A stretch of 5,560 nt of DNA from a virus. Its lineage: Duplodnaviria > Heunggongvirae > Uroviricota > Caudoviricetes. A program made the translations under genes and the position numbers. The notes below the pieces were generated by a model. The model did no database searches and was not told the DNA's origin. It saw only the letters and a list, made by a program, of their open reading frames with translations. Shown in pieces: positions 1,661 through 3,214 of the stretch (within the stretch, counting starts at the first letter, position 1; each line of letters begins with the position of its first letter). Location: IMG/VR virus record IMGVR_UViG_2734482785_000015; one strand, given 5' to 3'.

Positions 1661-1703
1661 AAAAAACAGTGAGTACCGTTTTAAAACGGTGAGTACTGTT
1701 TTT
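1661..1703. promoter_or_regulatory. AT-rich imperfect 44-bp palindrome with a perfect 16-bp core and embedded direct repeats, upstream of alpA
   Basis: Perfect palindrome ACCGTTTTAAAACGGT at 1675-1690. Outer arms AAAAAACAGT (1661-1670) and ACTGTTTTT (1695-1703) are complementary. Direct repeats GTGAGTACCGTTTT (1669-1682) and GTGAGTACTGTTTT (1689-1702) sit 20 bp apart. Could be an operator or a weak bidirectional terminator/attenuator; function not determinable from sequence. Confidence 0.5.
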
Positions 1704-1767: not shown

Positions 1768-1974
1768 ATGGAAGTAATCAGAAAAATTCTTACCCGTCAG
1801 GAAGTAAAAAATATTCTGCGCATCAAGGCAGACAGTTCGCTACAGGACATGATCAACGCCGGAAAATTCCCGAAAGGCTTCAAAATCGGTCTGCGTCGTG
1901 TTGGCTGGTATGAAGATGAAGTGCTGGCCTGGCTGAAAGAGCGCGAGGAAGAAGCGCGCGGAACGGCTGCGTAA
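1768..1974 (+). CDS. alpA: AlpA-family (P4 Vis-like, MerR-superfamily HTH) transcriptional regulator / excision activator
   Basis: 68-aa ORF with GAGG (1755-1758) 9 nt upstream of ATG 1768. The translation carries the AlpA-type pattern ILTRQEVKNILRIKADSSLQDMINAGKFPKGFKIGLRRVGWYEDEVLAWL. It lies just downstream of a P4-type integrase, as in P4-like cryptic prophages. Confidence 0.85.
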   Translation: MEVIRKILTRQEVKNILRIKADSSLQDMINAGKFPKGFKIGLRRVGWYEDEVLAWLKEREEEARGTAA

Positions 1975-2120
1975 TGGTGTGAGGCGTAACGCGATGAACA
2001 TAACAAAAAGCGCCCCGTTGCCGGAGCGCCCTTGCGAACAATTAACCTACTGCGCAAAAAATGAATCAGTGCAGTGGGATTATATCAACCGTGTAGCGAA
2101 GCGCCACAATTGCCGGATAA

Positions 2121-2153
2121 CAGGCAAAACAAAGGCCACCTGCTACGGTGGCC
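2121..2153 (-). terminator. Rho-independent terminator (minus strand)
   Basis: GC stem GGCCACC (2134-2140) / GGTGGCC (2147-2153) with a 6-nt loop. On the minus strand it is followed by UUUGUUUUG (complement of 2121-2133). No T run follows on the plus strand. Confidence 0.55.
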
Positions 2154-2256
2154 ATTCGACACAAGCTACACGTTATCCCCAACGCATGAGCATTGCCAAC
2201 AATGCCACATTTGCGGCTGGTGGGCAATGTGATCAGTGTGCTGGCTTGCTGGTGGG

Positions 2257-2451
2257 CTATTCCTGCTCTTTAACATCGTCATGCCGCGATGTTTTCCAGG
2301 TATGCGATCCCATTTTTGTGCGCCTGTACTCTTTTAAGAACTTCTCAAGGGCAAACGCACATGGCGCAAATCTTTCTGATTCATGCTCTATCTTTCTGCG
2401 CCGTCTTTTCCGTGCCGGTGATGGTGTATTGGTTGATTCTTTGTTGGTCAT
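2257..2451 (-). CDS. Questionable small basic ORF (64 aa, KRRRRK-containing) inside the transcribed 3' region of the regulator gene
   Basis: ATG-to-TAG ORF on the minus strand between the regulator stop (2509) and the minus-strand terminator. Weak or absent Shine-Dalgarno (AGG 8-9 nt upstream) and several rare codons (AGA, AGG, ATA, CGG) argue against it; position between a gene and its terminator argues mildly for it. Confidence 0.2.
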   Translation of the reverse strand: MTNKESTNTPSPARKRRRRKIEHESERFAPCAFALEKFLKEYRRTKMGSHTWKTSRHDDVKEQE

Positions 2452-2508
2452 TCTGTGTACCTGTAAAGCAATGCGCCGGAGTTCCTCACACCACGGCGAT
2501 GATAGTTA

Positions 2509-2814
2509 TTATTCTGATTCTTTGGCCTTGCGGCGCTGGAGTTCTTCACGTGCGACGGTGACGAGCTGCCCGATCTCCTCGGCAGCTTTGACTCCGATTT
2601 TTTCCACCTGCGCCAGCGCATCGAGCGAAGAAACCAGGGGATTTTCTCCGCTTCCTTCTGCCTGGCGGCGGGCGATCTCACCGCGCATGGCGGTTACTAT
2701 GAATCCGGCGTTGCTTTCACCGTCCAGTTTTACGGATTCCATGCCTTCAAAAGCATCATGTGGGATACGAATTGAAATCTGTTTTGATTTGTCGTTGATA
2801 GTGTTTTTTGCCAT
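2509..2814 (-). CDS. Putative ribbon-helix-helix (CopG/Arc/MetJ-like) DNA-binding regulator, candidate repressor of the divergent operon
   Basis: Minus-strand ORF. The best start is the ATG at 2812-2814 (101 aa, MAKNTINDKSKQISIRIP...), 6 nt downstream of AGGAGA (complement of 2821-2826). The track start at 2853 adds 13 residues without a ribosome-binding site. The N-terminus KQISIRIPHDAFEGMESVKL...SNAGFIVTAMRGEIARR fits an RHH beta-strand, helix, helix pattern. It diverges from an operator-bearing promoter region. Confidence 0.7.
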   Translation of the reverse strand: MAKNTINDKSKQISIRIPHDAFEGMESVKLDGESNAGFIVTAMRGEIARRQAEGSGENPLVSSLDALAQVEKIGVKAAEEIGQLVTVAREELQRRKAKESE

Positions 2815-2836
2815 GTGCATTCTCCTAAACAAAAGA

Positions 2837-2913
2837 TGTGATTCAGTATACACAAAAAAGAATCACAAAAAATACTTGACCTGTGATTCAGTTAAATTTA
2901 ATTTAAATCACAC
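2837..2913. promoter_or_regulatory. Divergent promoter region with two inverted-repeat operator units
   Basis: Unit 1: TGTGATTCA (2837-2845), 13-bp AT-rich spacer, AGAATCACA (2859-2867). Unit 2: TGTGATTCA (2882-2890), 14-bp spacer, AAATCACA (2905-2912). Plus-strand sigma70-like promoter: -35 TTGACC (2875-2880), 17-bp spacer, -10 TAATTT (2898-2903), overlapping unit 2. Minus-strand -10 TATACT (complement of 2845-2850) overlaps unit 1. Confidence 0.6.
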
Positions 2914-2937
2914 CTCAGTAAGAGGATGTAAACGACA

Positions 2938-2971
2938 ACGCCCCGAACTGTTTGCGGCAGTAGCGGGGCGT
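2938..2971 (+). other. Stable stem-loop in the 5' leader of the Icd-like operon (no U tract)
   Basis: ACGCCCCG (2938-2945) pairs with CGGGGCGT (2964-2971); an inner CTG/CAG pair sits within the loop. It lies between the predicted promoter and the ribosome-binding site of the first gene. It is not followed by a T run, so it is not a canonical intrinsic terminator. Confidence 0.4.
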
Positions 2972-3007
2972 CTAACCACCAACGATAGAAAGCGTATCGA
3001 GGTAGCT

Positions 3008-3214
3008 ATGAGAAATCATACCATACACCCGCAAGGGCGGGACTCGCACAACCTGAATAAATACATCTGGCGTTTTATCGCCCTGAGTACGGCACAACCG
3101 CGCGTGATTACCATCGTGGCCACCAGCGAACAGGAAGCGCGCCAGCAATCTCCTGATGGCTGCGTGATGGTATTCGCCGCCCGTATTCGCCAGGAGGTGC
3201 ACCATGTGCAATAA
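3008..3214 (+). CDS. Icd-like (Ash family) small protein; positional analogue of P4 kil
   Basis: 68-aa ORF with GAGG (2999-3002) 5 nt upstream of ATG 3008. The translation MRNHTIHPQGRDSHNLNKYIWRFIALSTAQPRVITIVATSEQEARQQSPDGCVMVFAARIRQEVHHVQ matches my recollection of the host-cell-division-inhibitor Icd-like proteins of P4-like prophages. It is the C-terminal in-frame part of the artefactual 1979-3214 track ORF. Confidence 0.8.
   Translation: MRNHTIHPQGRDSHNLNKYIWRFIALSTAQPRVITIVATSEQEARQQSPDGCVMVFAARIRQEVHHVQ

What the first reader, a model, noticed from the sequence alone, without database searches (positions are those of the whole stretch)
2509..3007. Protein-based divergent repressor switch where phage P4 itself uses an RNA immunity factor
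A 101-aa minus-strand protein with an RHH-like N-terminus is transcribed divergently from the Icd-like / primase operon, across a 190-bp AT-rich region carrying two inverted-repeat operator units that overlap both predicted promoters. This is the layout of an autoregulated repressor controlling the replication operon. In P4 the equivalent operon is controlled by the small CI RNA rather than a protein repressor, so this element may use a different, possibly uncharacterised immunity/induction switch.
Basis: partly seen in the sequence, partly recalled or inferred. Interest (0 to 1): 0.65.

Follow-up and report, generated by a model that had tools for sequence, protein, structure and literature searches.

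The report
Candidate protein repressor switch of PICIs
A small, unstudied DNA-binding protein and its four matching binding sites sit on the promoter of the replication genes of a phage-parasitic island (a Gram-negative PICI, including the model island of E. coli CFT073), which makes it the first concrete candidate for the silencing repressor that the one experimental study found could not identify in these islands.

Summary
A 101-aa gene at 2814-2509 (-) lies 193 bp from, and divergent to, an Icd-like/DUF927-primase operon. The gap holds two 31-bp inverted-repeat units made of four TGTGATTCA-like half-sites.

Across about 20 related loci, the four half-sites keep fixed positions around conserved promoter elements. 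They change in concert with the recognition-strand residues, not with AlpA or Icd. Proteins only 54-60% identical but with the same strand have the same half-sites.

The island is a Gram-negative PICI, not a P4 relative. It does keep P4's alpA / long "eta-like" ORF / nested Icd (Kil) layout. Rfam finds the C4/CI RNA in P4 but nothing here.

The model island EcCICFT073 carries a short form of the gene. The literature I could search calls these islands unidirectional and their repressor "unclear".

Best reading: an autoregulated RHH immunity repressor that occludes the replication-operon promoter. DNA binding and repression are inferred, not shown.

One plus-strand frame stays open antisense across the repressor operon. 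This suggests induction by AlpA-driven, translated read-through.

The parts
2509..2814 (-). Gene for a 101-aa YlcI/YnfO-family ribbon-helix-helix protein (candidate PICI repressor). Residues 1-54 form the RHH domain. Residues ~55-93 are an accessory helical insert with an HhH-like motif. Residues 94-101 are a basic tail.
2822..2826 (-). Shine-Dalgarno AGGAG, 7 nt upstream of the ylcI-like ATG.
   Evidence: Read directly from the sequence.
2837..2867 (.). Operator unit O1: TGTGATTC-N15-GAATCACA. It brackets the -10 of the leftward promoter.
   Evidence: The half-sites keep fixed positions in ~20 loci and co-vary with the recognition strand.
2845..2850 (-). Predicted -10 (TATACT) of the leftward ylcI-like promoter.
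   Evidence: TATACT or TATAAT lies at +31..+36 from the ATG in 13 of 21 loci and within one base of that in 4 more. Prediction only.
2876..2881 (+). Predicted -35 (TTGACC) of the rightward Icd/primase-operon promoter.
   Evidence: TTGACN lies at the same position in 18 of 21 loci. Prediction only.
2882..2912 (.). Operator unit O2: TGTGATT-N17-AATCACA. It spans the spacer, the -10 and the likely start site of the rightward promoter.
2899..2904 (+). Predicted -10 (TAATTT) of the rightward promoter, 17 bp after the -35.
   Evidence: A TAnnnT hexamer sits 16-18 bp (mostly 17) after the -35 in 18 of 21 loci. Weak consensus.
2938..2971 (+). Conserved 5'-leader hairpin (ACGCCCCG...CGGGGCGT), followed by the conserved TCTAACCA.
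   Evidence: 7 predicted pairs, 2 of them with compensatory changes. No Rfam family matches it.
3008..3214 (+). Icd-like (P4 Kil-like) ORF, first gene of the rightward operon. Its stop overlaps the next start codon.
   Evidence: NF033153 at 8.6e-20. Weak alignment to the C-terminus of P4 Eta/'cI ORF'.
2257..2451 (-). orf64, a small basic protein that is the second gene of the leftward operon. Function unknown.
   Evidence: phrog_21027. Homologues occur only in E. coli islands. No Pfam or PADLOC hit.
2134..2153 (-). Intrinsic terminator of the leftward operon.
   Evidence: Also seen as an isrD-like hairpin.
2006..2033 (-). Second minus-strand intrinsic terminator. The scan finds no plus-strand terminator between alpA and icd.
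1994..3214 (+). Long open frame equivalent in position to P4 eta. It starts 20 nt after alpA, reads antisense through orf64 and ylcI and through the operators, and ends as the Icd-like ORF.
   Evidence: 0 stops against 22-25 in the other two + frames. The same holds in 16 of 17 loci. P4 eta comparison.
1768..1974 (+). AlpA-family HTH gene, the known activator of Gram-negative PICI induction.
   Evidence: PF05930 at 4.5e-8. Function taken from PMC6092414.
3950..5560 (+). DUF927 primase/helicase gene (cut off by the window end), the replication gene at the end of the operon.
   Evidence: PF06048 at 1e-45 and phrog_1139 DNA primase.

Best explanation
The 101-aa protein is a ribbon-helix-helix (Arc/Mnt-type) DNA-binding protein of the YlcI/YnfO family. 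It most likely acts as the immunity repressor of a Gram-negative phage-inducible chromosomal island (PICI).

Shown or strongly supported:
- The RHH fold.
- Four half-sites (consensus here TGTGATTCA) at fixed positions. They form two 31-bp inverted units, one around each -10 element of two back-to-back promoters.
- Half-site sequence tracks the outward-facing residues of the recognition strand. These are positions 12 and 14, next to the near-invariant R16, and correspond to Arc Q9/N11/R13.
- The N-terminal coding part plus the operators are exchanged between islands as one specificity cassette.

Inferred:
- Dimers bind each half-site and pair up across a unit.
- O2 (2882-2912) occludes the promoter of the Icd-like to primase operon and keeps the island from replicating.
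- O1 (2837-2867), whose inner half-site is the most degenerate in many loci, gives negative autoregulation at higher protein levels.
- The 42-residue insert with an HhH-like motif, absent from the 59-aa short forms such as in EcCICFT073, adds oligomerisation, backbone contacts or a sensor surface.

Most speculative: induction. AlpA-activated transcription from upstream is kept going by translation of the long eta-like frame, as described for P4 eta. It runs antisense across the repressor operon and bypasses the repressed promoter.
For: Fold:
- The N-domain model has pLDDT 88.6.
- The N-terminal profile retrieves Arc from the PDB in the expected register, at E~0.5.
- 14 of 22 family members hit the RHH-clan Pfam family PSK_trans_fac weakly.
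- NF041551 is matched at 3.7e-18.

Sites:
- Repeats confirmed.
- Half-sites lie at about +23, +46, +68 and +91 from the ATG in most of the loci scanned.
- Aligned half-site table.

Co-variation of recognition strand and half-site:
- Q..S -> TGTGATTCA
- S..T -> TGTAAGACA
- L..T -> TGTGTTTCA (E. coli, Xenorhabdus, Photorhabdus and Serratia; the spacers differ)
- Q..N -> TG(C/G)GATTCA
- T..A -> GTGTTCAACAC
- Within-locus half-site identity is 0.58 against 0.40 between classes. None of 10,000 permutations reached the observed value.

Independent check. 35 operator matches in IMG/VR lie next to a homologue. The nine sequences printed all carry KQISIRIP, seven of them from proteins only 54-60% identical overall. 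The other hits are 90-100% identical to the window protein.

Specificity to YlcI:
- Window and L001 share AlpA at 97% and an identical ylcI C-terminal half. They differ in the N-terminal half and in the operators.
- Window and L013 share only 2191-2978, at 98.7%. Their AlpA is 38% identical and their Icd 77%.

Geometry and context:
- Conserved -35 and -10 elements.
- Minus-strand terminators.
- The order int, alpA, then leftward ylcI, then rightward icd to pri is seen in the 11 annotated E. coli islands examined, including EcCICFT073. The ylcI-icd divergence and a convergent alpA are also seen by tblastn and ORF listing in loci from other genera.
- No C4/isrK RNA here, although P4 scores 74.9 bits for C4.

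Read-through idea:
- Open-frame statistics.
- P4 eta mechanism as summarised in PMC10111431.
- AlpA activates a downstream 'ORF3' fusion in EcCICFT073 (PMC6092414).
Against: - No experiment shows binding, repression or any effect on the island.
- The sigma-70 scan did not call either promoter at its threshold. The rightward -10 is weak in this window (3 of 6).
- The full-length model was uninformative.
- Published work on EcCICFT073 explains induction by the activator AlpA without needing a repressor.
- In some classes (L001, L003, L005, CFT073, L021) the half-sites are direct or self-palindromic rather than simply inverted. The binding stoichiometry is therefore not settled.
- Linked descent inflates simple co-variation statistics. 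The concerted change of 3-4 copies, and the match in diverged backgrounds, are the stronger arguments.
Confidence: 0.7

Rival explanations
1. The RHH protein is the antitoxin of a type II toxin-antitoxin pair, with orf64 (2451-2257) as the toxin. On this reading the repeats serve only to autoregulate that pair.
For: - There is a weak Pfam hit to the VapB-type PSK_trans_fac.
- A small ORF follows on the same strand in most E. coli islands.
- Palindromic operators at the promoter are typical of TA autoregulation.
Against: - tblastn finds no orf64 homologue in L017 or in any locus from other genera, and no consistent small ORF follows ylcI in the seven such loci whose ORFs were listed. All of these keep the protein and the operators.
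- orf64 has no Pfam, NCBIfam or PADLOC match.
- A 57-nt gap separates the two genes.
- Unit O2 sits on the rightward replication-operon promoter in every locus, which a TA pair does not need.
Confidence: 0.07
2. The protein binds the repeats, but it is not the island's master repressor. It could be a dual regulator like P22 Mnt, repressing one promoter and activating the other. It could also be a fine-tuner, with AlpA alone deciding induction.
For: - Everything that supports DNA binding also fits this reading.
- AlpA overexpression alone induces EcCICFT073 (PMC6092414).
- From my own knowledge, Mnt both represses Pant and activates Pmnt from one operator.
Against: - O2 covers the stretch from the -35 edge to about +1 of the rightward promoter. 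That geometry suggests occlusion rather than activation.
- The module is present in every one of about 20 Icd-headed islands examined.
- It diversifies in the way phage immunity regions do.
Confidence: 0.15
3. Only the long + strand ORF (1994-3214, 'ORF3' or eta-like) is real. The minus-strand 101-aa ORF is a shadow, and the repeats are bound by AlpA, Icd or a host factor.
For: - The + frame is open in 16 of 17 loci, with 0 stops against 14-47 in the other two frames.
- PGAP sometimes extends the Icd-like CDS across the region.
- The published maps show only rightward genes.
Against: - The minus frame gives a confident RHH fold and matches curated HMMs.
- It has its own Shine-Dalgarno sequence and minus-strand terminators.
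- The + frame translation has no family hit. Its upstream parts are unrelated between genera.
- The repeats do not track AlpA or Icd.
Confidence: 0.03

Closest known systems
P22 immI region: the Mnt and Arc ribbon-helix-helix repressors (from my own knowledge of the P22 literature; Arc retrieved)
   Same: - A small RHH repressor gene is transcribed divergently from the operon it controls.
- The operators lie within overlapping back-to-back promoters.
- The recognition strand has the Q-x-N-x-R-x-P pattern in the same register as Arc.
- The long form, like Mnt, has an extra C-terminal helical domain after the RHH core.
   Different: - Sequence similarity is not significant (E~0.5).
- The controlled operon is an Icd-like/primase replication operon of a satellite, not an antirepressor gene.
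- The C-terminal domain is unrelated to that of Mnt and carries an HhH-like motif.
Phage P4 immunity region: PLE, CI (C4-type) RNA and the nested eta/kil genes
   Same: - The gene order is an alpA homologue, then a long ORF starting at its end, with an Icd/Kil-like ORF nested at the C-terminus, then small ORFs and the primase.
- An internal promoter for the replication operon lies inside the long ORF.
- Translation of the long ORF from an upstream promoter is reported to prevent termination in P4 (PMC10111431).
   Different: - P4 has C4, isrK and c4-a1b1 RNA elements. Here none is detected.
- Here a divergent protein gene and operators occupy the region instead.
- The related island L001 has no psu, sid, delta or epsilon.
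- There is no detectable nucleotide similarity to P4.
Stl/Rpr master repressors of Gram-positive PICIs (SaPIs)
   Same: The position is functionally equivalent. A regulator is transcribed divergently from the replication module of a phage satellite and is proposed to keep it silent until a helper phage is active (PMC6092414).
   Different: - There is no homology. From my own knowledge, Stl proteins are larger helix-turn-helix proteins. This is a 59-101-aa RHH protein.
- Here int and alpA are rightward and convergent with the repressor gene.
- No helper-encoded antirepressor is known.
- The known trigger in Gram-negative PICIs is AlpA.
E. coli K-12 YlcI (DLP12) and YnfO (Qin), the uncharacterised name-giving members of NF041551
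   Same: - They share the N-terminal motif (..NIRFP..).
- K-12 ylcI is also a small leftward gene, divergent from a rightward operon headed by nohD.
   Different: - The context differs: the late/packaging region of lambdoid prophages.
- The relationship is weak (hhalign probability 24%).
- No function is known for them, so they give no mechanistic precedent.

Membership tests
Ribbon-helix-helix (Arc/MetJ/CopG) DNA-binding superfamily | A beta-alpha-alpha fold of about 45 residues. | tested here: met
Ribbon-helix-helix (Arc/MetJ/CopG) DNA-binding superfamily | An N-terminal strand in which alternate residues face the DNA, including a conserved basic residue. | tested here: met
   The profile aligns to Arc residues 5-29 with Q12/S14/R16 matching Arc Q9/N11/R13. 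R16 is invariant in the long-form alignment and nearly so family-wide, while positions 12 and 14 vary by class.
Ribbon-helix-helix (Arc/MetJ/CopG) DNA-binding superfamily | A dimer that binds repeated or palindromic sites. | tested here: inconclusive
   Four half-sites co-vary with the strand residues. This is indirect evidence for binding. Dimerisation and binding cannot be tested with these tools.
NCBIfam NF041551 YlcI/YnfO family | Score above the curated cutoff of the family HMM. | tested here: met
   65.3 bits against a cutoff of 30, E 3.7e-18, residues 9-50.
Gram-negative PICI (EcCICFT073 type) | int, then alpA, then a pri/rep module, in an island of about 10-18 kb at its own attachment site. 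It carries captured packaging genes and no lysis or tail genes. | tested here: met
   The window has int, alpA and a DUF927 primase. The 96%-identical island L001 lies between tRNA-Pro and yejO and carries SSB, ProQ, PerC and TerS. EcCICFT073 itself has the same module.
Gram-negative PICI (EcCICFT073 type) | Induction and packaging by a helper phage. | not testable with these tools
   This needs experiments. It has been shown for EcCICFT073 in PMC6092414.
P4-like satellite | The core genes psu, sid, delta, epsilon and the alpha primase (list from my own knowledge). | tested here: not met
   None is annotated in L001. The primase is DUF927, not P4 alpha. There is no blastn match to P4.
P4-like satellite | A C4/CI immunity RNA with seqA-type targets upstream of the Icd/Kil ORF. 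| tested here: not met
   In P4, C4 scores 74.9 bits, isrK 60.8 and c4-a1b1 44.1. The window has no hit at E<=10. Nine related loci have none at gathering score.
Type II toxin-antitoxin system | A conserved adjacent toxin gene of a recognisable family. | tested here: not met
   tblastn finds no orf64 homologue in L017 or in the loci from other genera, and no consistent small ORF follows ylcI where ORFs were listed. orf64 has no Pfam, NCBIfam or PADLOC hit.
Helix-hairpin-helix (HhH) motif, in the C-terminal insert | The L-x-x-[VI]-x-G-[IV]-G-x-x-x-A-x-x-I signature forming two helices joined by a hairpin. | tested here: inconclusive
   The only PDB profile hits are HhH motifs of Hef and XPF, at E 0.0055-1.1. 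The motif [VI]E.IG.[KR]A..[ED]I is kept in diverged C-terminal domains. The first Gly is missing, no Pfam HhH family is hit, and AF2 draws one continuous helix at 59-100.

The most novel reading that the evidence does not exclude
Gram-negative PICIs, including the model EcCICFT073, are not unidirectional, activator-only elements. They carry a diversifying RHH immunity repressor with its own operators. The repressor gene is encoded antisense inside a long eta-like reading frame.

On this reading induction works in four steps:
1. AlpA drives transcription rightward from upstream.
2. Translation of the long frame keeps that transcript from terminating, as reported for P4 eta.
3. The transcript runs head-on through the repressor operon and shuts off repressor supply by transcriptional interference or antisense pairing.
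4. It also bypasses the repressed replication promoter.

This would be a protein-based counterpart of the RNA-based P4 immunity switch, built on the same scaffold.
Probability: 0.3. Interest if true: 0.8.

Novelty: new variant of a known kind. Interest (0 to 1): 0.64.

Why it matters
PICIs spread virulence genes and block helper phages. In Gram-positive PICIs the whole life cycle hangs on one repressor (Stl/Rpr) and its phage-encoded antirepressor.

For Gram-negative PICIs, the only experimental study I found states that a global repressor is 'unclear' and that the islands are transcribed in one direction (PMC6092414). I found no later paper in the searchable library that characterises one.

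This analysis gives a specific, testable candidate.
- It is present in the model island EcCICFT073.
- A DNA match to this segment is found in 1026 of 5426 complete E. coli genomes.
- The operator sites and the specificity residues are predicted.

Possible consequences if it holds:
- Natural immunity classes could explain which islands can coexist or cross-repress.
- It gives a handle for engineering PICI-based delivery vehicles.
- It shows two solutions, RNA and protein, to silencing the same Icd-headed replication operon.

Tried and rejected
- Rfam on the window at E<=10 and on nine related loci gave no C4, isrK or other relevant family. The RNA-immunity idea is rejected for this element. P4 served as the positive control.
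It was redone without those rows.
- The word-indexed homologue search with the N-domain returned mostly truncated near-relatives. The exhaustive search showed a small family of 38 clusters.
- tblastn against 50,697 phage genomes gave no match. blastn to phages gave one irrelevant hit. The protein therefore appears specific to satellites and prophage islands.
- PADLOC had no hit for the protein, orf64 or Icd.
- Translating the long + frame gave no Pfam hit, including Phage_ASH.
- A scan of IMG/VR for the operator, looking for targets in helper phages, gave hits at about the number I estimated by hand for chance, apart from those next to a homologue. There is no evidence for trans targets.
- I guessed that L013 8631-8837 was YnfO-like. 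It is not.
- The P4 eta/kil primary paper (PMC94026) is not held. I cite it through PMC10111431.
- AlpA or Icd as the binder of the repeats is rejected by the mosaic comparisons.
Full report
**What is in the window.**
- The 5,560 bases hold, left to right on the + strand: a tyrosine integrase (1-1242), a small ORF, and an AlpA-family HTH gene (1768-1974).
- Two small genes follow on the minus strand: orf64 (2451-2257) and a 101-aa ORF (2814-2509).
- The + strand then carries an Icd-like ORF (3008-3214), three small overlapping ORFs, DUF4222, and a DUF927 primase/helicase that runs off the end.
- A 96%-identical E. coli island lies between tRNA-Pro and yejO. It continues with SSB, ProQ/FinO, PerC and a small terminase subunit, and has no psu, sid, delta or epsilon.
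- This is the gene set of a Gram-negative phage-inducible chromosomal island (PICI), not of a P4-type satellite.
- The same regulatory cassette also occurs in a PICI embedded in the terminase gene of a Qin-like prophage.

**Checking the observation.**
- The ORF has an AGGAG 7 nt before its ATG.
- Substitution counts in its frame give pN/pS 0.05-0.13 in the C-terminal half at pS of about 0.5, and 0.2-0.5 in the N-terminal half. This is weak evidence here, because the antisense frame shares the same wobble positions.
- Two intrinsic terminators follow the leftward operon on the minus strand. The scan finds none on the + strand in that stretch.
- The gap to the Icd-like ATG is 193 bp. Its first 100 bp are 29% GC, against 51% for the window.
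- The gap holds TGTGATTC (2837) / GAATCACA (2860) and TGTGATT (2882) / AATCACA (2906). These form two 31-bp units whose starts are 45 bp apart.
- The 8-mer occurs three times in the window against 0.2 expected.
- The generic promoter scan called nothing in the gap, so the promoters are predictions. Comparison of about 20 loci nevertheless shows TTGACN at a fixed position with a TAnnnT 17 bp downstream. It also shows TATACT or TATAAT on the other strand at +31..+36 from the ATG.
- Each -10 lies between the two half-sites of one unit.

**What the protein is.**
- It passes the curated cutoff of NCBIfam NF041551, YlcI/YnfO family, whose function is unknown.
- It hits the RHH-clan Pfam family PSK_trans_fac weakly, as do 14 of 22 relatives.
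- The full-length AlphaFold model shows an extended N-terminus, helices at 19-28 and 35-54, and one long helix at 59-100. Fold searches with it were dominated by that helix.
- A model of residues 1-56, built on a more diverse alignment, reached pLDDT 88.6.
- A profile of the N-domain retrieves Arc from the PDB (E~0.5, not significant alone). The register places Q12/S14/R16 on Arc Q9/N11/R13.
- The C-terminal insert gives only HhH motifs of Hef and XPF as PDB hits (E 0.0055-1.1). The motif [VI]E.IG.[KR]A..[ED]I survives in otherwise diverged C-termini. I treat this as suggestive only.
- Short forms of 59-65 aa look like the long form with residues ~52-93 removed.

- In the loci from E. coli, Enterobacter, Erwinia, Serratia, Xenorhabdus, Photorhabdus, Phytobacter and others, the half-sites mostly lie at +23, +46, +68 and +91 from the ATG.
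- Their sequence changes in concert with the strand residues:

| Recognition strand | Half-site | Notes |
|---|---|---|
| KQISIRIP | TGTGATTCA | this window |
| QSLTARIP | TGTAAGACA | |
| QLTTVRVP | TGTGTTTCA | shared by E. coli, Xenorhabdus, Photorhabdus and Serratia; spacers inside the units differ |
| QQ(I/L)NARFP | TG(G/C)GATTCA | |
| QTVAARVP | GTGTTCAACAC | three copies |

- Within-locus half-site identity exceeds between-class identity (0.58 against 0.40). None of 10,000 permutations reached the observed value.
- Because everything in the cassette is linked, natural recombinants are stronger evidence.
  - The window and L001 are 98% identical through int and alpA and identical in the 3' half of the gene. 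They diverge exactly in the part coding the N-terminal domain and in the operators.
  - The window and L013 share only 2191-2978, at 98.7%, between otherwise unrelated integrase, AlpA (38% identical) and replication genes.
- The repeats therefore follow the N-domain, not AlpA or Icd.
- A scan of IMG/VR for the operator itself found 35 sites next to a homologue. Seven of those homologues are only 54-60% identical overall yet carry the same KQISIRIP strand, as do the two near-identical ones that were printed. The remaining hits are 90-100% identical to the window protein.

**How it most likely works.**
- Supported: an RHH protein whose recognition strand matches four sites that bracket the -10 elements of two back-to-back promoters.
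- Inferred:
  - Binding at O2 (2882-2912, from the -35 edge to about +1) occludes the promoter of the Icd-like to primase operon.
  - Binding at O1 (2837-2867) autoregulates the leftward operon.
  - The inner half-site of O1 is the most degenerate one in many loci. This would fit autoregulation only at high protein levels.
- The N-domain plus operators behave like a phage immunity region: a cassette with discrete specificity classes that is swapped between backbones.

**Relation to P4, and an unexpected layer.**
- In P4 the long ORF eta (8812-8168) starts inside the end of the alpA homologue orf88. It contains the internal promoter region with the C4, isrK and c4-a1b1 RNA elements, and it ends as the Icd/Kil-like sequence.
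- Tommasini et al. summarise earlier P4 work as follows. [quoted passage not shown]
- In the window one + frame is open from 1937. An ATG at 1994 has a GAGG 9 nt upstream and lies 20 nt after alpA. The frame runs to the Icd stop at 3214, which is 425 codons without a stop. The other two + frames have 25 and 22 stops over the same span.
- The same holds in 16 of 17 loci (264-611 codons). These include loci with extra inserted DNA and genera whose upstream sequences are unrelated.
- Within the AT-rich gap alone, that frame has 0 stops in all 16 loci, against 2-8 in the other frames. The chance of this is about 1-4% per locus.
- The frame shares wobble positions with both minus-strand genes. Its translation matches no family.
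- The P4 scaffold (alpA, eta-like frame, nested Icd) is therefore kept, but the RNA immunity elements are absent. A protein repressor operon sits antisense inside the frame.
- This suggests, but does not show, that AlpA-driven and translated read-through both silences the repressor operon and bypasses its operator.
- That would reconcile the module with the published finding that AlpA activates a downstream ORF3 fusion and is necessary and sufficient for EcCICFT073 induction (PMC6092414).

**Is it known?**
- RefSeq now annotates a 59-aa YlcI/YnfO gene and a 57-aa ORF on the minus strand of EcCICFT073, divergent from its Icd-like gene. It does the same in every other E. coli island I opened.
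- Full-text searches for YlcI/YnfO, EcCICFT073, PICI with repressor or RHH, and AlpA with inducer found no paper that assigns a role to this gene. One 2026 survey merely lists it.
- The library lacks most subscription journals, so an existing report cannot be excluded.

**Rivals.**
- A toxin-antitoxin reading is weak. No orf64 homologue is found outside E. coli or in L017, and orf64 matches no toxin family.
- The reading that the minus ORF is a shadow is contradicted by the fold, the HMM match, the Shine-Dalgarno sequence and the terminators.
- The reading that the protein binds DNA but is a dual or minor regulator remains open. It needs the deletion experiment.

**Verdict.** It is a new variant of a known kind: an Arc/Mnt-style repressor-operator module serving as the likely immunity switch of Gram-negative PICIs. 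The function is inferred, not shown.

Noticed in passing
window 1937-3214 (+), first ATG at 1994; the same feature in L001, L013-L017, L019, L021-L023, L002, L004, L006, L009 and L011: One + frame has no stop for 425 codons. It runs from just after alpA, antisense through orf64 and the RHH gene, across the operators, and into the Icd-like ORF. The other two frames have 22-25 stops. The frame is open in 16 of 17 loci even where the sequence is unrelated. It is equivalent in position to P4 eta with nested kil.
   Followed up: yes
window 2938-2971, plus 2972-2979 (TCTAACCA): A conserved hairpin and single-stranded tail lie in the 5' leader of the Icd-like operon. They are kept across all immunity classes and genera, with 2 of 7 pairs showing compensatory change. 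No Rfam family matches. A second small hairpin (about 2913-2925) overlaps the outer O2 half-site.
   Followed up: partly
window 2191-2978 compared with L013 13683-14470: The cassette (orf64, RHH gene, operators and leader hairpin) is 98.7% identical in a helper-embedded PICI that sits inside the terminase gene of a Qin-like prophage. That island has an unrelated integrase, AlpA and RepA-type helicase. The cassette therefore moves as a unit between backbones.
   Followed up: yes
window 2257-2451 (-): orf64 is a 64-aa, very basic protein with the conserved core ARKRRRRKIEHESERFAPCAFALE.FLKEY. It is co-transcribed with the RHH gene in E. coli islands, including CFT073, but absent from other genera. 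No family or function is known.
   Followed up: partly
L019 10474-10653 (EcCICFT073); L016, L021-L023: Short forms of 59-65 aa equal the long form minus residues ~52-93. The junction lies at the repeated RRQ/RRK motif. This suggests that the HhH-like insert was gained or lost by recombination.
   Followed up: partly
window 1669-1682 and 1689-1702 (+): The direct repeat GTGAGTAC(C/T)GTTTT occurs twice, 20 bp apart, 65-100 nt upstream of the alpA start. These may be AlpA auto-activation sites. A hairpin with a T-run at about 1606-1632 separates this region from the upstream int/orf transcript.
   Followed up: no
L024 6252-6446 (E. coli K-12 ylcI): K-12 ylcI, the family's namesake, is also a small leftward gene. 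It is divergent from a rightward operon (nohD, packaging) across a 388-bp gap. I did not check whether that gap holds matching repeats.
   Followed up: no
L001, L003, L005; L019; L021-L022 intergenic regions: In some immunity classes the sites are direct repeats (two pointing right, then two pointing left) or self-palindromic 11-mers (GTGTTCAACAC, GTGGGCCAC) rather than simple inverted pairs. Site architecture therefore differs between classes.
   Followed up: partly
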